Assembly (NCBI RefSeq): GCF_030684315.1
Contig: NC_081362.1
Coordinates: forward strand, 14,502,589-14,566,588
Length of the DNA: 64,000 nucleotides
Direction of reading: 5' to 3'
Origin: Stegostoma tigrinum
Taxonomy: Eukaryota
Shown here in pieces: positions 5,940 to 63,883 of this stretch (position 1 is its first letter; every line of letters begins with the position of its first letter). Below the pieces are notes generated by a model. That model saw only the letters and a program-made list of their open reading frames with translations. It had not been told where the DNA came from and made no database searches. A program made the position numbers and the translations under genes.

Positions 5940-6357
5940 ATTAAACTCCCCCCACTGCATCACACAACCAGCCCAGCTCATCCCCTCCACCCACTGCATC
6001 CCAAAACCAGCCCAGCCTCTCTCTGCCTCCCTAACCTGTTCTTCCTCTCACCCATCCCTTCCTCCCACCTCAAGCCGCACCTCCATTTCCAACCTACTAA
6101 CCTCATCCCACCTCCTTGACCTGTCCGTCTTCCCTGGACTGACCTATCGCCTCCCTACCTCCTCACCTATACTCTCCTCTCCACCTATCTTCTTTTCTCT
6201 CCATCTTCGGTCCGCCTCTCCCTCTCTCCCTATTTATTCCAGAACCCTCTCCCCATCCCCTTCTCTGATGAAGGGTCTAGGCCCAAAACGTCAGCTTTTG
6301 TGCTCCTGAGATGCGGCTCGGCCTGCTGTGTTCATCCAGCTCCACACTTTGTTACCA
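5940..6357 (+). mobile_element. Penelope-like element terminal repeat with mutated hammerhead core
   Basis: Nearly identical to 17515-17927; pyrimidine-rich tract, then CTGATGAAGGGTCTAGGCCCAAAACGTC (6265-6292; GAAA changed to AAAA). Confidence 0.85.
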
Positions 6358-16072: not shown

Positions 16073-17065
16073 TGTTGTTCTGGAAGAGAATGTACAGATA
16101 AGGAACTGAAATTACAGCATGGCATGAGGTTTTGAAGATACTTACTCAAGGTCATAACAAGCATAATTAGAAAAAACAATATTTTCAGTCGCAGATATTC
16201 AACAGCATAAATTGAAAGAATATGATAATCTTGTATAAAAATCACCAGGCCAAATTTTGAGCTCCAATAACCACTATAGATTTAAGGAGCTAAATAAATG
16301 ACTAGGTATTGCAATTTAAAATTAAAATACAATGCAACTAAATGATATTACTGTATCATTAGAGGCCGAGATAATAGATAAGGTTACAAAAAGCACCTTA
16401 CAAATTTTGACTCCTATCCTGCTGGACATCCTGTGAACTATATTTTGACTCTTTAAAAAGTCATTAATGAAATGAAGTTAACAAGATATCCATGATCAAT
16501 ATAAATTGTCAAAGTTACTTAGGTTATTTTTATTTATTCTCAGAATATGATTGTCACCAGGAATTTTTGGGCATTCCTAGTTATCTTGTGATCACTGAGG
16601 GCCTTCTCTTTGAGACACTTCAATCCTTGAGATGATGATATTTCACCATGGAATTAGGTACTTTCTAGGATGTTGCCCAATCAATGAGGAAAAACAATGA
16701 TAACATGGATTTTCTTCACAACATAAGTTACACCACCACATCTCACAGATTTTGTCCCAAAGTCAAACTGTATCCAGCCATAAATTTGGAAAAAATATTG
16801 GAGGAAAAATATTAATGCATAAAGAAAATTACATATTGCACATAATAATTCTACTGGCTATAAATATCATTTCTTCAAGTTTGTTGGTAAACAACTTCAA
16901 ATGATACAGAATAAAAACTGAAGCTATCCCCAGGTCAGGCTCATCTGTGGAGACACAAGAACAGTTATTCATTTCCAGAAGGAATAAACAGTAAAAGCTG
17001 CAAAATGACACACCGTGGTCAGACTTGTCTTGTGTATTTCAAAATGAACATTCAGTAGGACCAGT

Positions 17066-17927
17066 GATAATGGGAACTGCAGATGCTGGAGAATTTCAGT
17101 GGGGGGAGGGGAAGAACTGGGCTGGTTTTGGGATGCAGTGGGGGAAGGGGGAGATTTTGAAGCTTGTGAAGTTCACATTGATACCATTAGGCTGCAGGGT
17201 TCTGCTGTTCTTGCAACCTTCCGGTGGCATCATTGTGCCACTGCAGGAGGCCCATGATGGACATGTCGTCTGAGGAATGGGAGGGGGAGTTAAAATGGTT
17301 CACGACTGGGAGGTGCAGTTGTTCGTTGCGAACCGAACGGAGGTGTTCGCTGCACCTCCCAGTCGTGAACCATTTTAACTACCCCTCCCATTCCTCAGAC
17401 GACATGTCCATCATGGACCTCCTGCAGTGCCACAAAGATGCTATCTGAAGGTTGCAAGTACAGCAAAACCCGGCAGCCCAATGGTATCAATGTGGACTTC
17501 ACAAGCTTCAAAATCTCCCCTTCCCCCACTGCATCACAAAACCAGCCCAGCTCGACCCCTTCCCCCACTGCATCCCAAAACCAGCCCAGCCTGTCTCTGC
17601 TTCCCTAACCTGTTCTTCCTCTCACCTATCCCTTCCTCCCACCTCAAGCCGCACCTCCATTTCCAACCTACTAACCTCATCCCACCTCCTTGATCTGTCC
17701 GTCTTCCCTGGACTGACCTATCCCCTCCCTAACTCCTCATCTATACTCTCCTCTCTACCTATCTTCTCTTCTCTCCATCTTAGGTCCGCCTCCCCCTCTC
17801 TCCCTATTTATTCCAGTTCCCTCTCCCCATCCCCCTCTCTGATGAAGGGTCTAGGCCCGAAACGTCAGCTTTTGTGCTCCTGAGATGCTGCTTGGTCTGC
17901 TGTGTTCATCCAGCTCCACACTTTGTT
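17066..17927 (+). mobile_element. Penelope-like insertion with 5' inversion, GIY-YIG C-terminal remnant, intact hammerhead core and 16-bp TSD
   Basis: TSD ATTCAGTAGGACCAGT at 17050-17065 and 17928-17943; LPVVNHFNYPSHS...QPNGINVDF; inverted arms 17114-17318 and 17350-17553. Confidence 0.9.
17839..17866 (+). ncRNA. Minimal type I hammerhead ribozyme core (PLE-associated)
   Basis: CTGATGA-A-GGGT(CTAG)GCCC-GAAA-CG-TC: all conserved core nucleotides, 4-bp stem II, palindromic ACGT in place of helix III; helix I only ~2 bp. Confidence 0.7.
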
Positions 17928-18144
17928 ATTCAGTAGGACCAGTACTTCCATTTCTGAGTGTTATCACTTTCTCTCACCACGGGTTAGAATATATTTCACA
18001 GGATCTGTAACATGTCTGACAAAATTCAGATTCTCTTCTCATATTTGTCTTACTCTATCCATCCTGGTGTAGTTAGAAAGCACTTCTACACACAAAAGTT
18101 AGTGGAGGTTTAGACTCTCTTCCACAAACAGCAGTTAAAATTCC

Positions 18145-18707: not shown

Positions 18708-18915
18708 AAAGAACTGAGAATGATGGAAATCTGAAACAAAAGCAGAAATTGCTGGAGGATCTCAACAGGTCTGACAGCATTTGTGGAGAGAGAAACAGAG
18801 TTAATAATTCAAGTCCAGAGACCCTTTTTCAGACCCTCGTGAAAAAGTCGCTGGTCTCTACACGGCAGCTAACAGACCTACTGAGTTTCTCCAGCAATTT
18901 CTGTTTTTGTTTTTG
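18708..18915. mobile_element. Fold-back pair of PLE family-B terminal repeats
   Basis: CAGAAATTGCTGGAG..CTCAACAGGTCTG (left) and CAGACCTACTGAGTTTCTCCAGCAATTTCTG (right) are inverted; the centre is a decayed hammerhead hairpin. Confidence 0.7.
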
Positions 18916-19380: not shown

Positions 19381-19967
19381 GTAACCAGCACTTTGCTAGG
19401 ACTGTGTCGGGCCCTGTCAGGCTTTGCAGGAATTGACCAACACCGACGTTTATTCTCGACCGACAACAGCAGCAATCAATCTGTATGTCCTTGCGGTTAA
19501 AGTCAGGATGTTTAAAGTCTGGCGCAAGGACTGAGCGGTTCCTGTACTCCTCCGAACACATTTACATGCAATTTTCAACTCATGACAACCCCCGCCCCCC
19601 CGTTTGTTTCCTTTTAGAGGAAGGGCTTACATTTCCGTACCGCCTTAAGGGGATATCAAGACCATTTTAAAGTATAGTAAGTGAGGTTACAGTGAGTTAA
19701 ACCTTGTTACAGTTGGAACCAAAGACACACCATATGCAAGTTTAAACGATCAACTAGCCTTAAAGTTTCTGCTTAATGCGCCTACTAGTCCAGAAAAGTT
19801 ACTTGAATGTTTTGGGGCACTTCAAATGTCTCCAAAATAAATTACCCATTGTATACGTTTGTTTATATTTTGAACTTCTGTAATCATCCAATCGTAATTT
19901 TCACAAACAGAAATTGCTGGAAAAGCTCAGCGGGTCTGGCAGCTTCTGTGAAGAGAACTCGGAGTTA

Positions 19968-20254
19968 AGAATCATAGAATCCCTACAGTGTGGAAACAGA
20001 CCCAACAAGTCCTCGTCTGTTGACAGAGCATCCCACCCATCCCCTTATAACCCACCTAATGTACACATCCCTGAACACTGCAGGCAATTTAGCATGGCCA
20101 ATCCACCTAGCCTGCACATCTTTGGACTGTGGGAGGAAACCCATGCAGATACTGGGAGAATATGCAGACTTCGCACAGACAGTCACCCGAGGCTGGAATC
20201 GAACCCAGGTCCCTGGCTCTGTGAGGCAGCAGTCCTAGCCACTGTGCTACCCCG
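19968..20254 (-). mobile_element. HE1-like V-SINE nested in the PLE terminal repeat
   Basis: Full-length family copy splitting GAGTTA|ACGTTTC. Confidence 0.85.
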
Positions 20255-20256
20255 CT

Positions 20257-20286
20257 AACGTTTCAAGTCCAGTGACTCTTCCTCAG
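20257..20286 (-). ncRNA. Hammerhead core, PLE family B
   Basis: CTGAGGA-A-GAGTC(ACTG)GACTT-GAAACGTT; 5-bp stem II; the 3' strand of helix I is displaced by the SINE insertion. Confidence 0.6.
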
Positions 20287-20660
20287 AACATGCAGGCTGG
20301 GAACCAATGTTTTCTATGCAGAAGATAAGGTGGAGGGAGGGGTGGTTAAGGAATAAATGTTATGTGGGTTACCACCCAGGGAGAGAGAACAGTTGGGCAG
20401 ACAAAGGAGTGGGTAACGATCAGGCTAGGAGGGTGAACAGATGTTAATGGAGACTGTTAGTATGCCAATACACACTACCTACTGTTAGCCATTGTGTGTG
20501 GGTTTGGGGGCTAGGACATAGGAGAGTTTAGGCCCTAAAATAATTGAACTCAATATTGAGTCCGGAGGGCTGCAGGGTCCCCAAGTGGAAAATGAGCTGT
20601 TGTTCTTCCGGTTTGCTCTGAGCTTCATTAGAACACTGCCGCAAACCTGAGACAGATGTT

Positions 20661-21825
20661 AGAACATAGAAAAGTACAGCACAGTACAGGCCCTTCGGTC
20701 CACGATGTTATGCCGTGGAATAATCCTAATCCAAAAATAAAATAACCTAACCTACGTTCCCCTCAATTCACTGCTGGCCATGTGCATGTCCAGCAGTTGC
20801 TTAAATGTCACTAATGACTCTGCTTCCACGACTACCACTGGTAAACTATTCCATGCGCTCACAACTCTCTGAGTGAAGAACCTCCCTCTGACGTCTCCTC
20901 TATACCTTCCGCCTAACACCTCAAAACTATGACCCCTTGTGGCAGTCAATCCTGCCCTTGGGAAAAGTCTCTGGCTATCGACTCTATCCATGCCTCTCAT
21001 TACCTTGTACACCTTGATCAGGTCACCTCTCTTCCTCCTTCTCTCCAGAGAGAAAAGTCTGAGCTCAGTCAACCTCTCCTCGTAAGAAAAGCCCTCTAGT
21101 CCAGGCAGCATCCTGGTAAACCTCCTTTGCACCCTCTCCAAAGCCTCCACATCTTTCCTAAAATAGGGCGACCAGAACTGGACACAGTATTCCAAGTGTG
21201 GTCTCACTAGGGTTTTGTAGACCTGCAGCATAACCTCGCGGCTCTTAAACTCAATCCCCCTGTTAATGAAAGCCAAATCACCATATGCTTTCTTAACAAC
21301 CTTATCCACCTGGGTGGCAACTTTGAGGGAGCTATGCACTTGAACACCAAGATCCTGCTGTTCCTCCACACTGCCGAGAATCCTGCCTTTAATCCTATGT
21401 TCAGCATTTAAGTTCGACCTTCCAAAATGCATCACTTCGCATTTATCCAGGTTGAACTCCATCTGCCATTTCTCAGCCCAGCTCTGCATTCTGTCAATGT
21501 CTTGCTGAAGCCTGCAATAGCCCTCGATACTATCAATGGCACCTCCAACCTTTGTGTCATCAGCAAACATACTAACCCACCCCTCAACCTCCTCATCCAA
21601 GTCATTTATAAAAACTACAAAGAGCAGAAGCCCAAGAACAGAATCCTGCGGGACACCACTCAGCACTGACCTCCAGGCAGAATACTTACCATCTACAACC
21701 ACTCTCTGCCTCCTGTCAGCCAACCAATTCTGAATCCAGACAGCCAAATCACCCTGTATCCCATACCTCCTGACTTTATGAATGAGCCTGGGGAACCTTA
21801 TCAAATGCCTTGCTGAAGTCCATAA
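20661..21825 (-). mobile_element. Young 5'-truncated CR1 LINE with open RT C-terminal ORF (20752-21804, 350 aa)
   Basis: WIQNWLADRRQRVVV...SGVPQDSVLGLLLFVVFINDL...MFADDTKV...VRPHLEYCVQFWSP...RFFTQRVVSAWNSLP with no stops; CR1 tail. Confidence 0.95.
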
Positions 21826-23149
21826 ACCAGGAACAAGGTGATGGCAAGCAACTGGAAACTCAGGGTCTTTTTTGCGAGCAGACTGTATGTATTCTGTGAA
21901 GTAGTCACCCAGTCTATGCTTCGTTTCACCAATGTAGAGGAGACCACGTTAGCGGCAAATGCTGTAGACTAGATTATGAGAGGTGCAGGCAATGTGCTGC
22001 TTCACCTGGAAGATATGTTTGGGCCCCTGAATACTGACGAAAGAGGAGGCGAATGGGCAGGTGTTATACCTTCGGTTGCAGAGGAAGGTGCCATAGGGTT
22101 ATGAGGGTATGATGGGAGTGAAGAAGAGTGGACCAGGGTATCCCAGAGAGAACAATCCCTGTGGTAAGCGGCCAAGGGCAGGAAATACATGTCTGGCGGT
22201 GGCATCTTGCTGGAGGTGGCGGAAATGTCAACTAATTATCTTCTGGATGGTACATTTAAAAACAAGGGGAACCCTACTGCTGTTCTGCAAGGCAAGAGTG
22301 GGTGAGTGCAGAAGTGTGGGAGATGGATCGGACGCGGTTGAGGGCCCTGTCAACGACAGTAGCCCCCAATCCCACATACCAAGCCTTATCACGTAGTCTG
22401 CCATTATATATTACCTATTGTTAGCCACTAATAGTCTCCATTAACAGCCCAGAGAGAGAGAACAGTTCACCCTCCTAGCCAGTTCATTAACCACTCCTTT
22501 GTTCAACTGTTCTTCTCTCTCTTTTGGCTCTATCCTCACCTATTGTTTACTCTTTACTCTCTTCCCCCCCCACCCCCCATCTTCTGCCTATAAACTGAAA
22601 TTTTTCCAACTACCATCAGTTCTTAGGAAGGGTCATCTGATTTACAGCATCTGGAGTTTTCTCGGTTTTATTTATAACTTATTTCACTATCTGAGCATTT
22701 AAGTTTAAGGATAATAAGTGTCTTCAATTACCTGGTTTTCTGTAATTGAATGTGACTGGCTGCTTACCTGCAAGTAGCCACAACTGCTACATACCAAGAT
22801 ATCCCCTTGTCTCAGTGCCAGATTTTAAATTCCTGTTTAAAGAAGAGAAGACTGCAATACAAAGATAGCAAAACCTTGTGCACAGTTTTCTTCAGGGTCA
22901 GCAGCAAGCATTGTTATTTCATCAGTGATGACAAAGTCCAGGCCATAGTTTTGAATACAGATCCTTCAATCCATTTGAACACTTTTTTTTCCAGCATTAT
23001 TGGTACCACACGTATTTGTTTGTTTTTAAGTGACTTCAGATTCCTGATCTTGGAAAAAAATCTAGAAACCAATTCCCTTTCTTAATGTTAGTGTCATATT
23101 TGATCTCAAGCATGTCCTCCAACTATATATCTATACCAATATTAAGGCT

Positions 23150-24769: not shown

Positions 24770-26110
24770 CTGATGGTACTGAGCATTAGGCATTCATTAG
24801 TGGACATATCTGCTTTTCTAAGGTATAGAATTGTCGAATCAATTCAAGATGTTTGGACCAATGCTAGTTCCCTAAGGTACGCGTGCAGCAATGAGGTATA
24901 ACTAAGAGGATTGACCTCCACCTGCTACAACCACCTTCTTCTGTGTTTATGTCTCCAACCAGTTGAGAGATTGCTTCCTGATTCCCATTGACATCCAATT
25001 TTGCCAGGCATCCTTGTTGCCATATTCAATGAAACACTGCCCTGATGTTAGGGGAAGTCAGTCACGTTTCTTGTCTTGATTTTGATTCAGAGATAATGGG
25101 AACTGCAGATGCTGGAGAATTCCAAGATAATAAAATGTGAGGCTGGATGAACACAGCAGGCCAAGTAGCATCTCAGGAGCACAAAAGCTGACGTTTCTGG
25201 CCTGGACCCTTCATCAGAGAGATTTTGATTCATTTGCTTATGTTTAGACTAAATGTACAATGAGATCAGGAGCTAAATGGCCCTGTCAGAATCCAATCTG
25301 AGCATAAGTAAATGGATTATTGCTGATTGGTTACCACTTGATAGTATTGTTGAATAAATCTTCCAACATCTTATGATTCAAAGGAATGATGGCATTAATA
25401 GCCCATACAGTCATACAGCATGGACACAAATCCTTCAGTACAACCAGTCTGCGCCGAACATAATCCCAAACTAAACTAGTCCCACCTGCCTGCTCCTGGT
25501 CCATATCCCTCCACCTTTCCTACTCACGTACTTTTAAATATGGTAATTGTACCCACATCCACCACTTCCTCAGAAAATTCATTCCACATGTGAACTATCC
25601 CCTGTGTAAAAAATTGGTCCCTCGTGTTTTTTTATATTGTCTATTCTCATGTTAAAAATATGTCCCCTAGTCTTGAAATTCCCAATCCTGGGGAAAAGAC
25701 AACTGCCATTAATCCTAACTAGATCCCTTGTTATTTTATAAACTTCTGTAAGATTGCCTCTTCACATCCTATGCTCCAGTGGAAAAAGTCCCAGCCAATG
25801 CAACCTTTCTTTATAACTCAAACCTTCCATACCTGGCAACATCCTGGCTAATGTGTTCTGAATCCCCTCCAGTTTGAATTTGTCCTGCTTTTTGTGTACA
25901 AGACATATATGGGCAATTTTCCACATTTCTGAGTAGACGCCAGTGTTGAAGCTGTAGTGGAACAGCTTGATATCGGGTGCAGCTAGTACTGGAGCACGAG
26001 TCTTCATAACTGTTGCTGGGACGTTGTTAAGGCCTTTCAAGTTTCCAATGCCTTCAGCTATTTCGTAATGTCATGTTGATTAAATTGAATTGATAGAAGA
26101 CTGGTATTAG
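24770..26110 (-). mobile_element. Fragments of a CR1/L2-group LINE (same family as 45435-49085), with nested PLE mini-element and CR1 (25400-25872)
   Basis: LMKTRAPVLAAP..KLFHYSFNTGVYSEMWKIAHICLVHKKQDK; sequence parallels 47410-47590. Confidence 0.65.
25090..25220 (-). mobile_element. 131-bp hammerhead-containing PLE mini-element with 12-bp TSD
   Basis: TSD GATTTTGATTCA at 25078-25089 and 25221-25232; core CTGATGAAGGGTCCAGGCCAGAAACGTC (25190-25217); tail ...CAGCATCTGCAGTTCCCATTATCT. Confidence 0.9.
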
Positions 26111-26839
26111 ATGAACAGGATGTCGGGAAGACAAGTGGCTAGAAGCTTGGTCAAAGGTATGTTTTAAGGGTGTTTTTGATGGAGGAGAAAGTTACGTAGT
26201 GAGGTTTAGACAGGAATTCCTGCAGAATGGCATAAATCTGTTCTAAACTAAACAGGAACAGGGAAACAATAATGATTAATAATACTATGAAAATTGCTTA
26301 CAAAGAATGCAAGAGATATTGTCTGTCCGCCATATGTCTATTCTGAAAATTAGGTCTTGGTATCGATAGAGTATGTTTCAATGTTTTCTGTACTCAAATA
26401 AGTCTTTTACCATTCCTACTTTCTCTTCTCAAAAACACGAAGGAAATATACAGGAAAAGTACAACATAAACACAAAATCAGTACATTCATATATTTAGAA
26501 TGTTTCCTCATCTTCATACCATTCTGTACCATGTTGCAAAACAGATTATATTCTGTATTTTCCAAATTATACTTATGTTTAGTTTTCAATGGATAGTTTG
26601 CTTGACATTCACTCAGTTTTTAAATGTGGCCAGTACGCCAGTACTACTTCAATGTGCTCAAAGGTGTACTTTGTATTGGAGACCCCAAAACAGATCATAA
26701 AGCTCCTTGATGGATTTTAACATAAAGTTTTTTAAAACACAGTCACTCCCAGAAAATTTTACTTAATCTTTGCATGCATCATCAGATTTATCTATTGCTT
26801 AAATGACCCATTACTGACTCAGTTGGTTTTTGTTTATAG

Positions 26840-26992
26840 GTGAAAAATAAAGCACCTGCCGAATTGCAAATCACTGCTGAACAGCTCCTGAGAGAAGCAA
26901 AAGAGAGGGAACTTGAACTCCTTCCGCCACCTCCAACACAAAAAATCACTGATGAGGAGGAATTGAATGATTACAAATTAAGAAAAAGAAAA
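26840..26992 (+). CDS. CRNKL1: CRNKL1 exon 2 ([23 protein letters not shown]...KLRKRK)
   Basis: tatag| acceptor and |gtaagt donor; 153 nt. Confidence 0.97.
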
Positions 26993-27112
26993 GTAAGTGC
27001 TTTGTAACAGTTGCAATTTTTCTTTCCTTTTCAAAGTGGTGTAATAAATCAAGATTGTTGTCTGCTGTATATATATGTTGTATACTTTTTTATTGGCTCC
27101 ACGTTATTATAG

Positions 27113-27204
27113 ACATTTGAAGACAACATACGGAAAAATCGAACTGTTATTAGCAACTGGATCAAATACGCACAATGGGAGGAGAGCCTAAAAGAAATAC
27201 AAAG
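27113..27204 (+). CDS. CRNKL1: CRNKL1 exon 3 (TFEDNIRKNRTVISNWIKYAQWEESLKEIQR)
   Basis: tatag| acceptor and |gtaatt donor; 92 nt. Confidence 0.97.
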
Positions 27205-27305
27205 GTAATTATTTCAAGAAAATTTAATTGATATGGCGGAATCTTTTTATCAAGAAATAAATGAATGTTTCTTTTATTTTTACACATTTACACTTGTTGC
27301 TGCAG

Positions 27306-27464
27306 ATCTCGTTCAATTTATGAGAGAGCATTAGATGTTGATCACAGAAATGTAACCCTGTGGTTAAAATACGCAGAAATGGAGATGAAAAATCGACAGA
27401 TAAACCATGCTCGAAATATCTGGGATCGAGCAATAACCATCCTGCCCAGGGTCAACCAGTTTTG
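27306..27464 (+). CDS. CRNKL1: CRNKL1 exon 4 ([27 protein letters not shown]...VNQFW)
   Basis: tgcag| acceptor and |gtaagt donor; 159 nt; HAT repeat. Confidence 0.97.
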
Positions 27465-28368
27465 GTAAGTTGACTACTGGTAACTGTCTTTGCATTTCAG
27501 TTACATATAGTATGCTGTGAAGTTTTGTGTGGAATTAACATCAGTCAGAAATCCTGTCACCTTAAATGTTTTGTTGACCAAACCATGTATTTTCATTAAA
27601 GCATTATTGTAATGATGTCCTCCTAAACGTTTCTGGTTTTGAGTAGTTGATTTTGTAATCAACTTCTTGGTAGTTTGTTCTTAGTACATCCGCATAAAAT
27701 CCAACTTGAATGTTGATAGCAAGAACAAGAATTTTCTCTTCTATTGATTTAAGCCCTTTTTATATTTCACTTTCTTGTTGTACATTTTCAATATTTGCAT
27801 TTTAATTTAAATTACATTTCCAATATATATTTTAGACCCACTGTATTGGTCCTGATAATTTACTGTATAAGAAAATATTTAAGGTGAAGAAGTATTTGTT
27901 TTGCTTTTAAGAACAATGTTATATTTGGACTAAATTAATTACAGTCACTTCATGTCACAGCCTTCTCAGAGGGAGAGCCTATTTTTTGGTAAAGTCGAAA
28001 AATACCTGTTTAATCCAAGTAAGATCCATTTCATAGAATGAGATTTCAATCTCTTATGTTTTCTATCATTTGAGGAGTAAGCATCATTGCCCGCCTAAGC
28101 CCTAAACTCAGCTACAACCAAGATGCAGATGAAGTTTTCTATAGTTTGATCTATACATGAACCTGGATTGTTGATGATACTCTGTCAAGGCAGGGAGAAT
28201 CTGACTTGCATTGTGACTTGATTTGGAATTAGATTCAGTGTTCTGCAGTGCTTTTGCCATGATGGATATGACTTAAAGCCCATTGCTATATTTAATTAAT
28301 GTTTCCAGTGGATCTAATGGTATGCTTGTGTTAATATGCGCATGTTATATTGTATTTACTTTTGCTAG

Positions 28369-28535
28369 GTATAAATACACATACATGGAGGAGATGTTAG
28401 GAAATGTTGCAGGAGCACGACAAGTATTTGAGAGGTGGATGGAATGGCAGCCTGATGAACAAGCATGGCACTCCTATATCAACTTTGAACTCCGATACAA
28501 AGAAATTGAAAGAGCCAGGCTGGTTTATGAAAAGT
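28369..28535 (+). CDS. CRNKL1: CRNKL1 exon 5 ([23 protein letters not shown]...ARLVYEK)
   Basis: gctag| acceptor; followed by the U12 donor ATATCCTT; 167 nt. Confidence 0.95.
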
Positions 28536-30361
28536 ATATCCTTGTGGAATGTCACATAACATTAGTCATTTTGGAATGTTGCTTGCATGGATATCTCATG
28601 ATAAGGAAGGCAGAGACTTACTTATAAGCATCACTGACATTGTTCTAGCTCAAAAGCAGTGTAGTTAAATTTGGATAAAAATCTGATGATATCTGATTAC
28701 AATTGTGATTGCAAATTATTATAATTCAGATTATTTCAGTTGCTTTGTAGCATTCTCTTGAGCAAACAAAGAACTAAATAAATAGTGAGACAAAAGCACT
28801 AATATGGAGAAACAAACTTCTGTGAATTTTTTAGATCCCAGTTATTCAGGAATTGCACCAAAAATTACTAGTTCAGTGCCTCTTCCTAACAGGCACTTGC
28901 ACTGAAACTTGATGTAGAGCATATTAGGCCAGGCCAGAATTTTTCAAACTGGCGGTAACAAGTTCAAATGCAGCAGTATTTATTACTGCATTTTCTGTTA
29001 CAACGTACATGCTATTTTTAAAATGGCTTGTTCAATATTTTTCAAAACTTTACATTTGCCTATTGCTCTTTCCTAAAATCGTGTCATTTTATATATGGGA
29101 TGTGAAAGGGATACTGATACTTCACAGCAGTAGCAGTTGGTCTGTGACCTCCGTTAGGTGTGGGGTTTATGTCTAGTAGACCACTTGCCTAGAAATCTGT
29201 GACATTTTATGACCAACTGAACTTTTACCTGTTTAAATTTTTCATTTACAACTTCAACTGAAATGTCACAGATGTATTGTTCTGTCTTGGGGCAAAAAAA
29301 TATGCCCACAAATTCTCCATGTTGCCAATATGGGTTACACCCAACACCAGTGTCAAAAGCCGTTATCATGTTAAAGTTGAAGTGTTCAGAACTACTTTCT
29401 AGGGCTCATATTGTTAGCAGATATAGTTCACTTTTGAATGATGTTGATGGAAAATTTTGCGGAGTTTCTCCTGCTTTTCTGGTATTCCTCCCTAATTAAT
29501 GCTGCAGAAATCTCATTAGTGTTCCCAAATGGGACAACATAACACCGACAGAGTAAGGAAAGTCCTGTGCTGCTATTGTGTTGCAATGGAAATGATTTAA
29601 ATTTGTTGATGTCTTCTCATATGGTGCCTTGTTCTCCGTGCCTCTTGTTTTCCTTTCTTGTCTATTATAATGCAAAATCAAACTGTGCCCATTAGGTCAA
29701 AGTGGCTGCCGGTCCTTCTGTGCATGAGTCCCTAGTTACCCAAGAATTTTTGAGCACGCTGGGATTTAGACACCTTAGTTATCTTAATGTCATGCTCGTA
29801 AAAAAATGAAGTGAGAGGGATAGTATTTCAGAATAAGGTGTTATGCCACAAGAAAGCTGATGTCACTTTCAAGTAACAGGAAGCAGCTGCTGCAGGATAT
29901 AAAATAGCCTGCATGACGGTTTATTTCTTTCTACCATCAGTGCTTCTCTTGCTTTCACTCCCTCCCTTACTCCTCCAGTGGCCTCCCATTCACCATGCTT
30001 CCATGCTGGAAGGAGGCTGGCTCCCAGTGAGGTTCTTCCCTACACCTGGTATTTGTCCATTCCAGCTGGGGTCCAAGCTTCCACGTCCCCTCTCTGACCT
30101 CTTGTCAACAGTGATGCTGTGCTGTGATACCATCATCACACCACATGGAATGTAGTGATGTCATCAATATGTGTGCGGACACTTCCTGTAGCCCGACCTG
30201 TCACAGCAGTCGATGTCACTGGCCATATCAGCCCAAGCACGATAGCCATATTGTATTCAGGCTAATCGTTCTATTTCCTTGCAGAAAGCAGGCAGCGTTG
30301 TTTTTATGCCATAGTTACTCTGAAGCTTTTTGGTAAATTCCACAGTTCAGGCCTTTTTCAT

Positions 30362-30500
30362 GGAATCATAGAATCCCTCCAGTGCGGAAGCCGGCCATTC
30401 GGCCCATCAAATCCTCGCTGACTCTCCGAAAAGCATCCACACAGAACCTTGCCCCACCCTATCCCTGTAAACCTGCTATTCCACCAAGCCTGCACATCCC
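30362..30500 (-). mobile_element. Partial HE1-like SINE (3' part)
   Basis: GAATCATAGAATCCCTCCAGTGCGGAAGCCGGCCATTCGGCCCA...CCTGCACATC. Confidence 0.75.
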
Positions 30501-30554
30501 TTTCTATTTATTCAGTTGTGGGACGTGGGCTCCTATGGTTTTGTTTGAATTTTT

Positions 30555-30890
30555 AAAATTTGTTCATGAGATGTAGAATCACTGACTAGGCCAGCATTTT
30601 TTTTTGCCCATCCTCATTGCTCAGAAGGCAGTTAAGAGTCACCACATTGTTGTGGGTCTGTAGTTGCCTGTAGGCCTGACCAGGTAATTATAGCAGATTT
30701 CCTTCCTGAAATGAAATAAGTAAACCAGATAGGTTACATGATCATGATCACCTTTTGGCTAGCTTTTTATTCACTTATTTTTCTTTTATGAATTCAAATG
30801 TAACTGTCTGCCATGGTGGGATTTGAGTCCATCTCCCCAGAACATTAGCCTGGGGTTTAGATTTCTAGTCTAGTGGTATTATGCTTTTCC
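30555..30890 (-). mobile_element. tRNA-SINE, family of 47068-47372
   Basis: GGCCAGCATTT..TTGCCCATCC...GGCAGTTAAGAGTC...CTGCCATGGTGGGATTTGA shared with 47600-47937. Confidence 0.75.
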
Positions 30891-31208
30891 ATTGCCATCT
30901 GATGTACAGAGTTTCTTAAGTGCAGAAATATTGGACTGTATAATGCAAATTTTTCCTCATCACGCATATGATAAATGCCTGCTCTCAGTGATATTGTCAA
31001 CGTGTCTAAGGTTGGCTTTTCCATGGAGGAATTAATGAGCATACAGGCTAGTGACAAGGGGCATCCTTTGAATGCAGCTAATTATTATTCAAGGTGTATG
31101 AGGAGGTCTTTATTTTCACCATGGATAGTAACTTAAAAATGATTGGTTTATAGCCAAACGTGGGCAGGGTTCTTCTTTGCAGTTTTATTCTCCTTAATTC
31201 TTCTGCAC

Positions 31209-31387
31209 TTGTTTTAATTCATCCTGATGTGAAGAACTGGATTAAATATGCCCGGTTTGAAGAAAAACATGGTTATATTGGACATGCACGGAAAGTGTAT
31301 GAAAGAGGGGTGGAGTTTTATGGAGAAGACCACATGGATGAACAACTTTTTGTAGCATTTGCAAAGTTTGAAGAAAAGCAGAAAGAA
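31209..31387 (+). CDS. CRNKL1: CRNKL1 exon 6 (VLIHPDVKNWIKYARFEEKHG...FEEKQKE)
   Basis: Follows the AC acceptor; |gtaaga donor; 179 nt. Confidence 0.95.
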
Positions 31388-31817
31388 GTAAGAAGACCAC
31401 AATTTAGGTTTATTTGCTTCTTTTTCAAGATTGGGTCAATGTGTTGAATCACTTTTACTTTTGAATTCAAAACATTAGTGAAAAGAGTCCAAATAGTCTC
31501 AGTTTGGTTAAAGTAAATATTAATCAATAGTTCATTTTCAAAGCTTTATTCCTAGATGTTTTAAACAAAATATGCATCTCTTCTCTTTAAAACTGTTTCT
31601 GTGTCTCTTTTTATTTATATTCATTCTCTTTTTGCTTTATCTGTGTCTGATTCATTGTTTCTTTTGTTTTATTTCTGTTTCTTTCTGAATATTGTTTCTC
31701 TTTCTTTATGTCTTCTGGCTTGTCCTTATTTCTCTGTGCTTTCATCTATTTACCATATCTCTGTAGTTTATATTTTCAGTACCCATCTATACCTTTTTTT
31801 GCTATTCTTTATCTCAT

Positions 31818-32355
31818 GGAGTCATAGAAACCTATTGCACAGGGAAAAAAAACCTCAGCTTATCAAGTCTGCAGTAGTCAAAAACAACCAGCTAACTAGT
31901 CTAATCATATTTTCCAGCACTTGAACGTTGCTTGTATGCTTTGGCATTGCAAGTATACACCTAAATACTACTTAAATGTTGTGAGCGTTTCTGCCTCTAT
32001 CATTCAGTGAACTCATGATTCCCTCCACTGAGTGGAAAAAAAATTTTTCTCACATCCCCTCTGAGCCTCCTGCACCTTATCTTAAATCCATGCCTTCTGG
32101 CCAATTAACTCTCCAGTGGGGGAAACGTCCCTTACTACCTACCCTATCTGTGGCCCCTCACAATTTTATACATCTCAACTGTGATCCCACTGGGTCTCCT
32201 CTGCTCCAAGGAAAACAATCTCACTCTGTCCAATCTCTCGCAGTTACTAAAACTATGCAGCCCAGACAAATCCTGATAAGTCTCCTCTGCAACCTCTCTA
32301 GCAAGGATCTGATTGCACTGGAGAGAGTGGAGAGGAAACTTATCAGAATGTTTCC
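31818..32355 (-). mobile_element. CR1 3' fragment with short inverted piece
   Basis: ERLDRVRLFSLEQRRPSG..VEMYKIVRG on the minus strand; plus-strand piece KDLIALERVERKLIRM at 32300-32355. Confidence 0.75.
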
Positions 32356-33415
32356 TTCCTCTCACATTCCATTTTTCTCCATCAGAATTGCATAATTCTT
32401 CCATCCACCCACAGTTAGCAAAAGGGAATTATGAGGCACATATGACTTTCTATTGCATTTGCACAATAGAAAGGGAGCCACTGCTTGGGGTAGAGATTTG
32501 TAGTTGTCCAAGACCAGATTTAGGTATTGGCATAGGCAGTTGTTAACTACAGTGGAGTTTGGCTAGACTGAAAAATGTTACATGATTTTTAAATTACTGC
32601 AGTGAAAGGGAAAGCATTTCTCAAATGATGCTATTATGAAATAAATCCCTGCCCCTTGAGTCAAGGATTTAGCAGATCAGCCATGATCTCCTTAAATGGG
32701 TGAGGAGACTGAATGGGTTGAATGGTCTTATTCTACTCCTATGTCTTATAGTCTTGTGCTTCTATGATATTAAAATTTACAGTGTTGGCATTGTTTTAAA
32801 ATGTTCTGTCCAAAGCTTGAATAGTCTGAGTCCTGATGGAAGAGTGTGGCACTTCCTTATTTACTGTCATCCTTCAAACTTTTAAAGCTGTACTGAAATT
32901 GGTTTATTTGTTAATATTATTTTGGAAAGGGATTGCAGAGCTGATTACATGGTTGCTACTGAAATGCATACTATTTCTTATATTGTTCCAGATGATTTCT
33001 GACAGAAATTTGCTAATTTTCTTTAACAGAAGACATTTAGCCTCTAAATTATTCAAGAACTAGAAAATGTGATGTGTTGACATAAAGCTTAGTTTTGATT
33101 AATTTTATAATCAAATATAAATTCCTTACTAGTGAAGTGGATAAAACTGAGATTGAAAATAGAAATTGTAAGAATATATGTATTTCATCCTTTTGTGGTG
33201 TCAATTTCCATTAAATGTTCGAGATTTCAAACAACTTTTTCTTAATCCTGTTTTAATAAATTTATCCATGCAGTTTAATTGTTTGAATTTTCTTAATGTA
33301 CCCTGAAAGATCTGTGCACTCTATACTGAAAAATGCTATTCCTGCTTGTGCTGTTTTTGAATCAAATGTTTTATTAGCATTTCCACCTAATATCGTGACT
33401 TCATTCTGTTTCTAG

Positions 33416-33586
33416 TTTGATCGAGTGAGAGTTATCTACAAATATGCACTTGATAGAATTGCCAAACAGAAAGCTCAAGAGCTCTTCAAAAACTATACAG
33501 TTTTTGAGAAAAGGTTTGGGGACAGGAGAGGCATTGAAGATGTTATTGTCAGCAAAAGACGCTTCCAGTATGAAGAGGAAGTCAAG
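33416..33586 (+). CDS. CRNKL1: CRNKL1 exon 7 (FDRVRVIYKYALD...QYEEEVK)
   Basis: tctag| acceptor and |gtaaaa donor; 171 nt. Confidence 0.97.
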
Positions 33587-33729
33587 GTAAAATTTATTTT
33601 TTTTATTTCTAGATCTGTCTTGCAATAAAGAACTTGCCATTCCAAAATTTTAAACAAACACATCAGGCAGCATCTGTGAAGAGTCAAGGCACCTCAGCTG
33701 TTTTAAGTCTAGACCTGAAATATTAACTT

Positions 33730-33860
33730 CAGTGATAATGGGAACTGCAGATGCTGGAGAATCCAAGATAATGAAATGTGAGGCTGGATGAACACAGCAG
33801 GCCCAGCAGCATCTCAGGAGCACAAAAGCTGACGTTTCGGGCCTAGACCCTTCATCAGAG
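33730..33860 (-). mobile_element. 131-bp hammerhead-containing PLE mini-element (intact core)
   Basis: CTGATGAAGGGTCTAGGCCCGAAACGTC at 33831-33858; short TSD AACTT (33725-33729, 33861-33865); inserted in an older PLE remnant. Confidence 0.88.
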
Positions 33861-34299
33861 AACTTGACTGCTTTGCGCATGACTGTTACCTACATTTCAG
33901 ACATTTGGTATCATTTTAATTTTAAAGAAGTAGATATTGAACATGGGTTAGCTGTGCTGGGAGCAACTGTACCAAACGGTTATGGGGTACATAACTTAGA
34001 GGAGGTGTTCACATTTCTGAAATTGTAAAACTCAATGTTGTGTTCCAAAGGCTATAAGGTATCTAGGCAGAAGATGTGTTATTCCTCTAGCTTACGTTGA
34101 GCCTTGCTGGAGCACTGTAACATGCCCAAAACAGAAGCTGGAAGAACAACACCGCTTCTTAGTTTCCAACTATATTCCGGGGATTGCCCCCTAATCTTTA
34201 CTTTGTTTTCTATTAAACTATAAAAGTAAGCAACAAACCTGCATGTTACTCCCTTTTCTTTGGTCTGTGAGAAAGATTTTGGTCAAGAATAAGAAGGAA

Positions 34300-43687: not shown

Positions 43688-43885
43688 AGAGATAATAGGA
43701 ACTGTTGATGCTGAAGTCTGAGATAACAAGGTGTAGAGCTGAATGAACACAGCAGGCCAGGCTGCAGCAGAGGAGCAGGAAAGCTGACATTTTGGGTCTG
43801 GATCCTTCAGACCTGAAATATCAGCTCCTGCTCCTCTGATGCTGTCTGGCCTGCTGTGTTCATCCAGCTCTACACCTTGTTATCA
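43688..43885. mobile_element. Fold-back (palindromic) PLE mini-element
   Basis: GATAACAAGGTGTAGAGCTG..AACACAGCAGGCCAG inverted to CTGGCCTGCTGTGTTCATCCAGCTCTACACCTTGTTATC; turns at the stem II hairpin; flanking GACTTCT direct repeat. Confidence 0.85.
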
Positions 43886-50394: not shown

Positions 50395-51030
50395 AGCTTA
50401 AAAGGTGATAAAATATAACAAGGCACTTCACAGAAGCTTTTTAAAATAGAGCACTGAGGCATGAAAGGAGATAGTAGGGCAAATGCCAAAAGCTTGGTCA
50501 AAGAAAAACAAAGTAAAGAAATGGAAAGAAAGTTCCACAGCATACAGCCAAGGTACCAGTGGTACAGCAATTAAAATCAATGATGCTCAAAAAGGCCAGA
50601 TTCAGAAGAACACAGATCTTCTGTAGAGCTGGAGGGGTTCACAGAAGTAAGGAAGTGCAAGGCCATAGCGAGGTCTGAAAACAAGAATGAAATCACTGCG
50701 AGCCAATGTAAGTCAGCAAACACCGGGAGGTTGTGTGAACAGGAATGTTTGTATTAGGACATGGGCAGCACAGATACCTCATGCTGATGAAGGGTAGAAT
50801 AAGAGATAATAGGAACTGCAGATGCTGGAGAATCCGAGATAACAAGGTGTGGAGCTAGATGAACACAGCACGCCAAGCAGCATCTTAGGAGCAGGAAAGC
50901 TGACGTTTCGGGCCTAGACCCCTCAATAGGTCGGCCATACAGGAGTGCATTAAAACCTAACTGTAGATTACACAGAGTCATGAATGAGATTTTTTTAAAA
51001 AACTCCTTCCTTAAGGTTTGAGGCAGCATC
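50395..51030 (-). mobile_element. L2 LINE 3' fragment
   Basis: Parallels 54930-55460. Confidence 0.65.
50802..50924 (-). mobile_element. PLE mini-element truncated within the hammerhead core
   Basis: GGGTCTAGGCCCGAAACGTC...TTATCTCGGATTCTCCAGCATCTGCAGTTCCTATTATCTC; CTGATGA is missing. Confidence 0.85.
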
Positions 51031-53203: not shown

Positions 53204-53322
53204 GGAGATAGCAAGAACTGCAGATGCTGGAAGTCAGAGTCGATAAAACGTGGAGCTGGAGGAGCAGAGCAGGTCAGACACCATCCAAGGCTCAGGAAAG
53301 TTGACGTTGCCGATCGGGATCT
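53204..53322 (-). mobile_element. Diverged PLE mini-element
   Basis: GAGATAGCAAGAACTGCAGATGCTGGA...GTTGACGTTGC; flanking direct repeat TTCACTC. Confidence 0.75.
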
Positions 53323-59612: not shown

Positions 59613-59768
59613 TACAGAGATAGTACGAACTGCCGATGCTGGAGAATCTGAGATAACACGGTGTGAAGAAGGTGGTCAAGAAGAAGGGTCGTAAACCGAA
59701 ATGTCAACTTTCCTTCTCCTCTGATGCTGCTTGGCCTGCTATGTTCATCCAGCTTCACACCATGTTAT
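59613..59768. mobile_element. Fold-back PLE mini-element with 13-bp TSD
   Basis: TSD ATCAAAAACATGC at 59600-59612 and 59769-59781; inverted tail on the left; decayed core GAAGAAGGGTCGTAAACCGAAATGTC. Confidence 0.85.
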
Positions 59769-61067
59769 ATCAAAAACATGCAGTTGATATTATAATTCCA
59801 AACATATCCAAGGAAGAAGCATGCTTCATGCCAACCATTATCTCTTGCTGGACACTCTGAACAGCTTTAGTGATTTCACCTTCCAAGAAAGTCAAACACA
59901 GAATCAAAGAGGGTTTGACTGTACACTGCAACAGGATTTTCCAACAGGGACACACAGTATATTTGCGAATACAATGGGAAGCTGTGTCAACAATACGCAA
60001 CTAATTCAATTGTCTGCCTCCTCTGCATAGATACAGTAGCATATTCTAGAGGTTCGTAGGTACTGCAATGGAAGAATTCTGTACTTATTCCCACGTTACC
60101 GTGTATCCAGGATAAAAGTGTTCTTGTGTATACAAATTTAAGGGTATGGCAATTAATTATGCAATTTCTGCAGGACAACAGCAGATTCATTTTTCTGAAA
60201 GAGAACAGTTCCCAACACAAGGGGTACAAATTTCCCAAGTGCCTCAAGGTATTTGATCTTTACAATGATGTTTCCATTGTAAATTTTTTTTTGAAATGTT
60301 TTGTTTAAAGGAGTGTACATATTGGCTTGCAATGACATTTAATGGACTGGATGAGGTATGGACCTGTGTTTTTTTTTTAAAATGGTTACTGAAAGGACAT
60401 TTGGGCCCTTTTTTCAAAAGATGCATTCTGGAAATCATGACTTAAGTTAATAGTTTGGACACGTTCACAAAAAAAATTACCATTCCCGACCTTAAGTTGT
60501 CAAAAACTGTGGCTACTGGGTATTGTCTGGAGCTCAGTTGGTAGGTAGCATACTGAAATTGGTCATCCAGCACATCCATCTATTTTGAAAATTCTTTGGA
60601 GAGAGGGTAAAACATGGTATAGCTGTTTTCCTAAGTTTCTGGAGAACTTCTTATCATCTCCTGAACAAACTGATTCTGAAAATATCCCAGTAACAACCAT
60701 GTGTGTTTTGTGACCTATCGACATGTGCTAGGATACCAGCATCTGGCTTGGTTCCAGTTACTTTTTTTTAAAATCCCCCACAGTTAACTATTATTTTTCC
60801 ATGCTTTTGTGTGCACTAGCTCTCTGTAGAGAAGGTTTCGTGCATTTTGCTTTAAACTGATGTGGAGATGAGTGCACATGTATTTTAGCCTATTTAGAAA
60901 GGTAGATACTGTCGTATTCAAAGCTGAGTTTTAATGACTTGTACTTTTATTGAATAAGTATTGTTTTATAATAAAATCAATAGTCATTATCAATTACAGA
61001 AACCCAGTTGAAGGATCTGTACTCAAATGGAAAGATTAGCATTTATACACATTTGACAATTTTGATA

Positions 61068-61166
61068 CAAAAACCAAAATTTCTGTAAAAGCTCAGCAGG
61101 TCTGGGCTCATCTGTGGACAGAAATCAGAGTTAACATGTTGGGTCCAGTGACCCTTCCTCAGAACT
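61068..61166 (-). mobile_element. PLE family-B terminal repeat fragment
   Basis: AGTT-CTGAGGA-A-GGGTC(ACTG)GACCC-AACATGTT-AACT; GAAAC is mutated, helices I and II are intact. Confidence 0.75.
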
Positions 61167-61864
61167 TGGCATATTGACTTGTTTTAAAAATTATATGTTG
61201 CATCCTAGCCAATTAGTAAAACTTCAGAACAACACTTTGCACATCCCCACCTTGGTTGAAACAAAATGGACTTGTTTCTGTACATTACTTTGAAACAAAC
61301 TCACATGTTGCTGTATCAGAAACCCTCTGTTCCAATCCTTTCAATTCAGTTATTGCACATGTTACTGCACTGACCAAAGTCCAGGAAAGACCTCCACTGT
61401 GACCAGCAGGCCATGCCTGCTTGTTTTGTTTTACCCTTCAACAGCACATAGCAGTTAATCATGCACTGCCACTCCAGTTGCCTCCCTAGAGTCCAGCTCT
61501 GAGAGATTAGCTTTGTGTGATGCACGAACCTCAGCTCCAGCAAATGTTTTTCATGCCCTGCCAACTGGTCAACTCAAGAGTCATCCTATAGTAGGGCCTT
61601 TTATGTTTTTTGCCACACGTTGGTCCTTGCCATTGTCCGTGTCTCTCACTCTGAGCAATATTGTGTAAAATCTTAAGGTCTGGCTCAATCACCAATACTG
61701 CAACATAACCAACCTTCTAAACCTACTTCACGAGCTTCTGTCATTTTACTCAAACTTCTCTCAACCATTCCAATTCACTTCTGATGTTTCTTCATCTAAT
61801 ATTACTGCATGTTATTCAATCTTCCGTTACAAGACTCTGCACTGCATAATGCATTAATGCCCAT

Positions 61865-63404: not shown

Positions 63405-63883
63405 TAACAAAGAGGCAGGCGTAGCTTGGGCCTATGCGGGTGCCCATGGGCACCCCCTTTGTCTGTAGGAAGTGGGAGGAATCGAAAGAGAAGTAGGTAC
63501 CCGCGCCCTCTACCTCCTCCAGAATTTCCAATTCCCTGGCCCCCAACACCTCACTTTCACCATGGACGTCCAGTCCCTGTACACCTGTATTCCACATGCA
63601 GATGGCCTCAAGGCCCTCCGCTGCTTCCTGTCCCGCAGGCCGGACCAGTCCCCGTCCACCGACACTCTCATCCGCCTAGCTGAACTCCTCCTCACCCTCA
63701 ACAACTTCTCTTTCGATTCCTCCCACTTCCTACAGACAAAGGGGGTGGCCATGGGTACCCGCATGGGCCCAAGCTATGCCTGCCTCTTTGTACGTTATGT
63801 GGAACAGTCCTTCTTCTGTACCTACACTGGCTTCACACTTTGTTATCTTGGATTCTCCAGCATCTGCAGTTCCCATTATCTCG
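63405..63883 (+). mobile_element. Internally deleted Penelope-like element with RT fragment, 5' inversion and 13-bp TSD
   Basis: FTMDVQSLYTCIPH...LTLNNFSFDSSHFLQTKGVAMGTRMGPSYACLF are PLE RT motifs; TSD AAGTCGTGCATTA at 63392-63404 and 63884-63896; ends in the family tail. Confidence 0.92.

What the first reader, a model, noticed from the sequence alone, without database searches (positions are those of the whole stretch)
25078..33865. Defined ~131-bp TSD-flanked mini-retroelement made of a ribozyme core plus tail
Two independent insertions (25090-25220 with a 12-bp TSD; 33730-33860 with a 5-bp TSD) have almost the same boundaries. They start 2-3 nt before CTGATGA and end at ...CATCTGCAGTTCCCATTATC. 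Copies at 50802-50924 and 53204-53322 also start within the core. Random 5' truncation would not give such coincident ends. This suggests either a non-autonomous SINE/retrozyme-like unit mobilised by PLE machinery or a fixed reverse-transcription stop at the ribozyme. I do not know whether this unit has been described in elasmobranchs.
Basis: partly seen in the sequence, partly recalled or inferred. Interest (0 to 1): 0.8.

Follow-up and report, generated by a model that had tools for sequence, protein, structure and literature searches.

The report
Penelope stubs marking the transcript start
These 131-base insertions are stubs of a very common Penelope-type jumping gene rather than a separate mini-element, and thousands of them begin at one base, four letters before its ribozyme and often with an extra G, which likely records the capped start of the jumping gene's RNA.

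Summary
The two insertions are real (minus strand; 12-bp TSD exact, 5-bp TSD weak). They are the terminal repeat (minimal hammerhead plus 35-nt tail) of an abundant Neptune-like Penelope element (RT, Cys linker, GIY-YIG), about 220 arms per Mb. The peak lies upstream of stem II and of the cleavage site (+28). Genome-wide, 12,119 copies break off just before C(-4), and 71 of 100 listed carry G there (16-36 of 100 at neighbouring positions). A TATA-like box lies 30 nt upstream. A second family shows the same -4 and G; a third ends at -17; the older subfamily lacks the G. Short and long copies share haplotypes and intermix on a tree, so a separate SINE or retrozyme lineage is not supported. The 131-mer is one of several forms: 95-mers and head-to-head pairs are commoner. 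Best reading: reverse transcriptase primes in the tail and runs off the capped 5' end of uncleaved RNA (inferred; no RNA data). This scan reached the same reading on other DNA of this genome.

The parts
25090..25220 (-). Stub 1: terminal repeat of a Neptune-like PLE from -3/-4 to +127 (hammerhead plus tail). Its stem II closing pair G10.1-C11.1 is broken by a C-to-A change.
   Evidence: 98% identical to a long copy
25078..25089 (+). 12-bp TSD of stub 1, left copy
   Evidence: exact match
25221..25232 (+). 12-bp TSD of stub 1, right copy
   Evidence: exact match
25190..25217 (-). Minimal type I hammerhead core in stub 1 (C3 at 25217; predicted cut after 25190)
   Evidence: motif as defined in PMC4209133
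33730..33860 (-). Stub 2: same terminal repeat, from -2/-3 to +127
33831..33858 (-). Intact minimal hammerhead core in stub 2 (4-bp stem II with a 4-nt loop, no helix III loop, 2-bp helix I; predicted cut after 33831)
   Evidence: helix I read from the sequence
33731..33764 (-). About 35-nt optional tail between the two 3' end sites (about +93 and +127)
   Evidence: 3' end histogram
33725..33729 (+). 5-bp flank match of stub 2, left copy (weak TSD)
33861..33865 (+). 5-bp flank match of stub 2, right copy (weak TSD)
50802..50925 (-). Stub starting at +4, with tail; no TSD found
53204..53322 (-). Old diverged stub (75%); 5' end uncertain, alignment starts at +22
17350..17929 (+). Longer 5'-truncated copy of the parent PLE (end of the GIY-YIG region, pLTR, hammerhead, no tail), with an inverted piece and tail at about 17063-17318
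17805..17811 (+). TATA-like box at -34 in the long copy; absent from the stubs
   Evidence: sequence; present at -34/-35 in 54 of 63 long copies; function untested
17835..17835 (+). C(-4): inferred transcription start and genome-wide 5' boundary of the stubs
5946..6354 (+). Longer 5'-truncated copy of the parent PLE (-313 to +89)
43689..43884 (.). Head-to-head pair of stubs (older subfamily), one arm with tail and one without
59617..59772 (.). Head-to-head pair of stubs with a 13-bp TSD

Best explanation
The 131-bp units are copies of the terminal repeat of an abundant Neptune-like Penelope retrotransposon, likely made when its reverse transcriptase starts inside the tail and runs off the capped 5' end of uncleaved element RNA, which is predicted to begin four bases before the hammerhead core. 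Shown: the unit is both the 3' end of long copies and the leader in front of the ORF; there are two 3' ends about 35 nt apart; 5' ends pile up at -4 with an extra G; short copies are not a separate lineage. Inferred: (1) a TATA-like box at -34 in the upstream pLTR starts Pol II transcription at -4; (2) the element protein nicks target DNA and primes at +127 or about +93, as shown in vitro for the Anolis element; (3) priming on the 5' copy of the repeat, or on read-through RNA from a 3' pLTR, leaves only about 97 or 131 nt to copy; (4) the enzyme adds C opposite the cap, read as G; (5) end joining, often with a few bases lost, gives TSD-flanked singles, and use of both target strands gives head-to-head pairs. 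The stubs lack the TATA-like box and would be dead ends.
For: Parent element: long copies carry RT motifs, a Cys linker and GIY-YIG (Pfam RVT_1 E=0.004, GIY-YIG E=0.02-0.03). The unit precedes the ORF start in L341 and L328; 1,414 copies run on past the tail. End rate per nt is 0.061 at -8..-3 and 0.048 at -2..+5, against 0.0016 at -250..-61 and 0.004 at +36..+55; the same holds for unpaired arms and for arms at least 93% identical. Genome-wide first non-C base: 12,119 at -5 (G71 T23 A6 of 100 rows), 7,219 at -4 (G36), 5,703 at -6 (G28), 3,232 at -8 (G16); Fisher p at most 1e-6. In 80 loci read, non-inverted junctions have G in 18 of 24 (p=1e-6 against 27% background). Of the 11 with a TSD of 10 bp or more, 9 have G, and in 6 the G lies outside the TSD. 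Family B has an initiator-like motif with A at -4, a TATA-like box at -33 in one long copy, and G in 54 of 100 rows. In family C short arms end at -17 (7 of 72), not at the core (2 of 72 within -5..+5), about 30 nt below an AT-rich box. Two ORF-leading copies also start near -6 and -3 (L328, L352). 62 of 69 pairs have exactly one tailed arm, matching two RT start sites and extension of both strands in PMC11167929. An untemplated 5' G is linked to cap copying in L1 (PMC9341517, passages).
Against: No RNA evidence for a start site or a cap was obtained. The older subfamily shows no G excess at -5 (G27 A49 T24 of 100 rows; 3 of 13 non-inverted loci). Most G-junctions are inverted pairs (39 of 48 inverted loci have G), where the G can come from the opposite arm or a palindromic join; only the 24 non-inverted loci are free of this. 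Family B has no neighbouring-position control. Family C numbers are small, several -17 arms are two arms of one insertion, a palindrome lies there, and a second cluster sits at -40..-45 (8 of 72). Many ends scatter from -3 to +14, including both window copies, which show no extra G. An extra G marks a template end and does not prove a cap. D. virilis Penelope uses a TATA-less internal promoter with its start well upstream of the hammerhead (PMC2377424, PMC4209133). Pfam hits are below curated cut-offs. Paired arms show a bump at +26..+30, near the cut site (13 events).
Confidence: 0.65

Rival explanations
1. The RNA does end at -4, but because it was cut there by a nuclease or small-RNA pathway, not because transcription starts there; the G is a non-templated addition at any template end.
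For: It explains the sharp edge and the G equally well. The older subfamily lacks the G excess. No cap data exist.
Against: TATA-like boxes sit about 30 nt upstream and initiator-like motifs fall on -4 in families A and B, and the family C peak moves with its AT-rich box. G is specific to one position.
Confidence: 0.13
2. Reverse transcriptase stalls on the ribozyme fold or on the C-rich tract just upstream, on a longer RNA.
For: The peak spans the core (-8..+10), with a tail of ends to +14. A run of five C begins at -4. Palindromic junctions at stem II occur.
Against: An enzyme moving 3' to 5' on RNA would stall at the 3' foot of stem II (about +19); the rate at +15..+35 is 0.006 against 0.06 at -8..-3. 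The 131-mer folds no better than shuffles (z -0.06). Family C ends at -17, not at its core. A stall does not predict a position-specific G.
Confidence: 0.11
3. The unit is a self-propagating non-autonomous SINE or retrozyme-like element with its own master copies, whose transcript begins with G.
For: Very high copy number; clean TSD-flanked singles exist; non-autonomous PLE derivatives are known (MRC1 in PMC8557442; non-LTR retrozymes in 10.64898/2026.07.22.740005); a few short tandem arrays occur (L337-L339).
Against: No allele is private to short copies, haplotypes are shared, and the tree is intermixed. Two 3' ends and head-to-head pairs match the parent's insertion pattern. Unpaired 5' ends are not enriched at the cut site (2 events at +26..+30). 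The tree rests on only 83 nt, so its power is limited.
Confidence: 0.08
4. Ordinary random 5' truncation, with an apparent peak caused by alignments failing in the low-complexity pLTR.
For: The upstream region is C/T-rich and differs between subfamilies.
Against: Fifteen natural long references of young and old type were used. The peak persists in arms at least 93% identical. Exact-pattern counts need no alignment, and only 8 of 80 loci read were long pLTR copies.
Confidence: 0.03

Closest known systems
Endonuclease-positive Penelope-like elements, Neptune clade (PMC8557442, passages)
   Same: RT, Zn-finger-like Cys linker, C-terminal GIY-YIG; hammerhead in the pLTR; heavy 5' truncation; inverted 5' copy; one-sided 30-40 bp tail.
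   Different: Here 43% of sampled arms end at one narrow site, with a position-specific extra G; I did not see this in the passages read. Clade assignment rests on the linker motif, not on a tree.
Poseidon of Anolis carolinensis, PAc (PMC11167929, parts 1-2 of 4 read)
   Same: Two internal RT start sites that define the tail; both target strands extended; hammerhead cleavage not needed and uncleaved RNA is the main template.
   Different: In PAc the hammerhead and tail lie in the first codons of the ORF; here the long ORF starts about 42 nt after the tail. The parts read treat 3' ends, not a fixed 5' end.
Penelope insertions of Adineta vaga (PMC3846280, passages)
   Same: Inverted pLTR with a tail on one arm, 8-10 bp TSD, palindromes at the junction, putative TATA and Inr in the pLTR, solo pLTRs.
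   Different: That paper proposes self-priming on an antisense template; a cap-like G at the sense start would favour a sense template. Its solo pLTRs lack TSDs.
Minimal hammerheads of metazoan PLEs (PMC4209133, parts 1-2 of 4 read)
   Same: Conserved core, extra base between positions 9 and 10.1, G10.1-C11.1 pair, no helix III loop; mostly dispersed single motifs; opposite-strand pairs noted.
   Different: Stem II is only 4 bp and helix I only 2 bp here. Sharks were not among the species named in the parts read. The motifs were put down to truncated PLEs without mapping their ends.
Non-LTR retrozymes (PMC7761336, passages; 10.64898/2026.07.22.740005, parts 1-3 of 5 read)
   Same: PLE-related type I hammerhead, non-coding, dispersed monomers, one chondrichthyan genome positive.
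   Different: Retrozymes are head-to-tail tandem units of about 150-300 bp bounded by the cut site. These stubs are singles or head-to-head pairs bounded upstream of the cut site, with no lineage of their own.
Full-length L1 insertions with an untemplated 5' G (PMC9341517, passages); minus-strand strong-stop DNA of LTR elements (recalled, no call)
   Same: An extra G where reverse transcriptase reaches the RNA's 5' end; a short product made by priming close to the 5' end.
   Different: Analogy only: different enzyme class, and here the short product is itself integrated in very large numbers.

Membership tests
EN+ Penelope-like element (parent) | Single ORF with RT followed by C-terminal GIY-YIG endonuclease | tested here: met
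   Searches show the motifs in order; Pfam hits are weak and below cut-off; all copies seen are broken or partial.
EN+ Penelope-like element (parent) | Terminal repeat present at the 3' end and again before the ORF (pLTR, partial tandem) | tested here: met
   L341: pLTR from -284, unit, then ORF; long copies end in the same unit.
EN+ Penelope-like element (parent) | Optional 30-40 bp tail on one end, inverted 5' copy, TSD | tested here: met
   Two 3' ends about 35 nt apart; 62 of 69 pairs with one tailed arm; TSD 8-18 bp in 39 of 67 pairs.
Neptune clade | Zn-finger-like CX2-5CxxC linker between RT and endonuclease | tested here: met
   CX4CX2C motif upstream of the GIY-YIG in L027 and L038; definition from PMC8557442.
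Neptune clade | RT groups with named Neptune elements in a tree | not testable with these tools
   No Repbase or Dfam reference set is held.
Minimal type I hammerhead | Conserved core, stem II closed by G-C, palindromic 15.2-16.2, no helix III loop | tested here: met
   Stub 2 and 35 of 82 motif hits share the exact core; stub 1 has a broken closing pair.
Minimal type I hammerhead | Self-cleavage (as a dimer or protein-assisted) | not testable with these tools
   Needs a bench assay.
Non-LTR retrozyme | Head-to-tail tandem units, each with a hammerhead | tested here: not met
   The window copies are singles or head-to-head pairs; tandem cases are rare (2 of 80 loci; L337-L339).
Non-LTR retrozyme | Unit boundaries set by self-cleavage | tested here: not met
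   Unpaired 5' ends at +26..+30: 2 of 165, against 56 of 165 at -8..+10.
Non-LTR retrozyme | Abundant circular RNA | not testable with these tools
   No usable RNA run (see Tried and rejected).
SINE-like non-autonomous family | Own lineage: diagnostic variants or clades separate from the autonomous partner | tested here: not met
   limited power on 83 nt and 96 sequences.
SINE-like non-autonomous family | Internal promoter carried by each copy | not tested
   The TATA-like box lies outside the stub; an internal promoter was not searched for or assayed.

The most novel reading that the evidence does not exclude
Penelope elements make a strong-stop-like product: reverse transcriptase primes about 100-130 nt from the cap of uncleaved sense RNA, copies the cap, and integrates the stub on one or both target strands. 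Hundreds of thousands of genomic stubs would then map PLE transcription starts to the base, place the hammerhead 4 nt behind the cap where cutting would decap the RNA (a likely off-switch rather than a release step), and favour a sense over an antisense template.
Probability: 0.45. Interest if true: 0.7.

Novelty: new variant of a known kind. Interest (0 to 1): 0.5.

Why it matters
How Penelope-like elements copy themselves, and what their hammerhead does, are called open in the papers read (PMC11167929, PMC8557442, PMC7761336). If the stubs record the capped RNA start, one genome gives a base-level map of PLE promoters, evidence that the template is uncleaved sense RNA, and a direct test by CAGE or in vitro TPRT. 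It also warns annotators that such short TSD-flanked hammerhead repeats need not be SINEs or retrozymes. The element class and most of the insertion anatomy are already described.

Tried and rejected
Rfam at E up to 1 found no hammerhead family in the window, only microRNA models below their thresholds on the palindrome at 43722-43884. A DNA search of the own genome with the 131-mer returned nothing because common words are skipped; exact patterns were used instead. No PDB sequence match for the RT region. The protein atlas gave no result, and PMC5785218 is not held. Whole-unit folding gave no signal (z -0.06 and -0.19). A splice acceptor as the cause of the G was rejected: bases -6/-5 are CC, not AG; the upstream AG near -23 has only one 5' end at -23 and one at -22. 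Ribozyme cleavage as the main boundary was rejected. The idea that pairs combine one arm from the 5' repeat and one from the 3' repeat is not supported: 7 long-long pairs against 1 long-short, arm lengths correlated (rho 0.48). The subfamily label was mis-indexed (it labelled nothing); the pair-distance and tree steps were redone. Literature searches listed no paper describing this unit in cartilaginous fish or a fixed, G-marked 5' end in PLEs; these were judged from listings and the parts named, subscription journals, Repbase and Dfam are not held, and no supplements were opened.
Full report
Convention. Positions are relative to C3 of the hammerhead core CTGATGA (=0) on the element's sense strand, which is the window's minus strand for the two copies. 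An arm is one aligned stretch that reaches at least +55.

Observation. Both copies are present and 94.7% identical. Copy 1 (25090-25220) has an exact 12-bp TSD. Copy 2 (33730-33860) has only a 5-bp match, shorter than the 8-18 bp seen in 39 of 67 inverted pairs; matches of 5 bp or more arose in 16% of mismatched flanks under a loose search. The window holds 16 arms of this family, including two longer copies (5946-6354 and 17350-17929) in which the same sequence continues upstream.

Parent element. I sampled the window plus 134 stretches of 10 kb, 1.394 Mb of called bases. Positions were fixed in advance on large contigs, ten of them next to the window, so the sample is not strictly random. 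It gave 311 arms, 223 per Mb, roughly 700,000 if extrapolated. An exact 17-nt core pattern occurs 154,228 times, and 79,287 matches are intact to -8. Long copies encode RT motifs, a CX4CX2C linker and a GIY-YIG domain. Pfam hits are weak. By the linker this is a Neptune-like PLE (PMC8557442, passages). 1,414 copies run past the tail; in L341 and L328 the unit leads into the long ORF about 42 nt further on. The unit is therefore both the element's 3' end and its 5' leader.

3' ends. There are two: about +89..+95 and +125..+127 (the references end at +127). This is the PLE tail, which in the Anolis element lies between two RT start sites (PMC11167929, parts 1-2 of 4). 138 of 311 arms form 69 head-to-head pairs, and 62 of 69 have exactly one tailed arm. 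Unpaired arms split 85 tailed to 79 untailed. The finding's form (unpaired, start -8..+10, tailed) is 27 arms; 6 have an exact TSD of 8 bp or more.

5' ends. Using 15 natural long copies of young and old type as references, 131 of 303 arms not cut by a stretch edge end at -8..+10 (8 arms dropped as edge-cut). The end rate per nt is 0.061 at -8..-3, 0.048 at -2..+5, 0.013 at +6..+14, 0.006 at -20..-9, 0.0016 at -250..-61 and 0.004 at +36..+55. The pattern holds for 165 unpaired arms and for 116 arms at least 93% identical. The edge is sharp upstream and decays downstream, as expected for a template end with some loss. It lies upstream of stem II (+8..+19) and of the predicted cut (+27/+28). Unpaired arms show 2 ends at +26..+30. 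Paired arms show 13, seven at +28 from five insertions, where a self-complementary 4-mer also lies; a minor role for cleaved RNA is not excluded.

Extra G. The young subfamily has C from -8 to -4. Genome-wide counts of the first non-C base, with the make-up of the first 100 rows: -8, 3,232 (T61 A23 G16); -6, 5,703 (T47 G28 A25); -5, 12,119 (G71 T23 A6); -4, 7,219 (G36 A36 T28). Position -7 was not searched. A variant pattern gave G66 T19 A15. Row counts are mine, by eye; these counts mix true ends with point changes in long copies. I read 80 loci (the first 50 and the first 30): 8 long pLTR copies, 48 inverted (39 G), 24 non-inverted (18 G, 4 T, 2 A; p=1e-6 against 27%). In inverted cases the G may come from the other arm, so the non-inverted set is the real test. 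Of its 11 members with a TSD of 10 bp or more, 9 have G and 6 of these lie outside the TSD. Neither window copy shows the G. An untemplated 5' G is tied to cap copying in L1 (PMC9341517, passages).

Promoter-like context and other families. A TATA-like heptamer lies at -34/-35 in 54 of 63 long copies, 30 nt above -4; the spacing rule and initiator consensus are recalled, not from a call. A motif scan found further hammerhead families. Family B has an initiator-like motif with A at -4, a TATA-like box at -33 in one long copy, and G at -5 in 54 of 100 rows, without a neighbouring-position control. Family C (2,412 exact matches) has an AT-rich box near -46; of 72 arms from 70 loci, 7 end at -17 and 2 within -5..+5, with 8 more at -40..-45. 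This favours a start site over the ribozyme fold, but numbers are small and a palindrome lies at -17. Against the reading: the older A subfamily has G in only 27 of 100 rows and 3 of 13 non-inverted loci, some of them unrecognised long copies.

Not a separate lineage. Among 111 arms of the young type, the main haplotypes are shared between long and short copies (20/23, 12/11, 7/9). One site differed at p<0.01, near the 3' end, where short copies were merely more uniform. On a tree of 96 arms, one per insertion, the label changed 27 times against 28.6 +/- 2.3 in 500 shuffles; 83 nt gives limited power. The two arms of a pair are closer to each other than to other copies of their type (0.082 against 0.119, 26 pairs, p=0.001), and their lengths correlate (7 long-long, 1 long-short). 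Both arms thus seem to derive from one template; whether by copying the RNA twice or by fold-back on the cDNA is open.

Mechanism. Shown: parent, two 3' ends, fixed 5' boundary, position-specific G, shared lineage. Inferred: transcription from -4; internal priming at +127 or about +93; run-off at the cap; joining as singles or two-armed insertions. The template could be the 5' repeat of full-length RNA or read-through RNA from the 3' pLTR of truncated copies; these data do not separate them. Because the stubs contain an uncut hammerhead, their template was uncleaved, in line with PMC11167929.

What is known. Minimal hammerheads in pLTRs and as dispersed motifs (PMC4209133, parts 1-2 of 4), inverted pLTRs with one tail, TSDs, junction palindromes and putative TATA/Inr (PMC3846280, passages), and starts within the pLTR (PMC2377424, part 1 and passages; PMC8557442, passages) are all in print. 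Retrozymes are tandem and bounded by cleavage (PMC7761336, passages; 10.64898/2026.07.22.740005, parts 1-3 of 5), which this is not. Searches listed nothing on a fixed G-marked 5' end; Repbase, Dfam, subscription journals and supplements were not seen. Earlier agents of this scan reached the same reading on other pieces of this genome. I saw their notes after forming mine, and they are not independent support.

Verdict. A real pattern, half-rightly read: a fixed stop, yes, but most likely at the RNA's start rather than at the ribozyme, and a by-product rather than a new element. Interest 0.5.

Noticed in passing
L151, L156, L195, L218, L222, L229 (also L037, L061): Six of 72 family C arms begin at +20..+22, inside stem II of the hammerhead, right after the same A-rich 3' end of another repeat; this looks like a LINE that targets this spot.
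   Followed up: no
L015, L028, L044, L100, L131: Seven paired arms from five insertions start exactly at +28, the predicted hammerhead cut, which is also a self-complementary 4-mer; possible trace of cleaved RNA.
   Followed up: partly
L328 and L341, unit region: A 27-codon upstream ORF runs inside the unit and stops at the tail end, in frame with the long ORF that starts about 14 codons later; seen in several copies.
   Followed up: no
L337-L339 (G000:C1, about 38.42 Mb): Head-to-tail array of about 308-bp units, each with pLTR end, hammerhead, tail and ORF start: a retrozyme-like tandem derived from this PLE.
   Followed up: no
window 50784-50797: A 12-nt plus-strand piece of the hammerhead start sits tail-to-tail with the copy at 50802-50925.
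   Followed up: no
window 18737-18911, 19902-19968, 20256-20292, 61068-61168: Diverged copies of a second hammerhead-bearing family (family B); nearly all sampled copies are short stubs.
   Followed up: partly
window 63407-63882: RT-region fragment of the PLE with an inverted piece, joined directly to a tail fragment (+74..+127).
   Followed up: no
window, minus strand, about 20750-21950: Open frame of 398 residues that begins with a GIY-YIG-like motif, probably the end of an older PLE copy.
   Followed up: no
window 43722-43884: The head-to-head pair scores against Rfam microRNA models below their thresholds; such palindromic stubs could be mis-annotated as microRNA genes.
   Followed up: no
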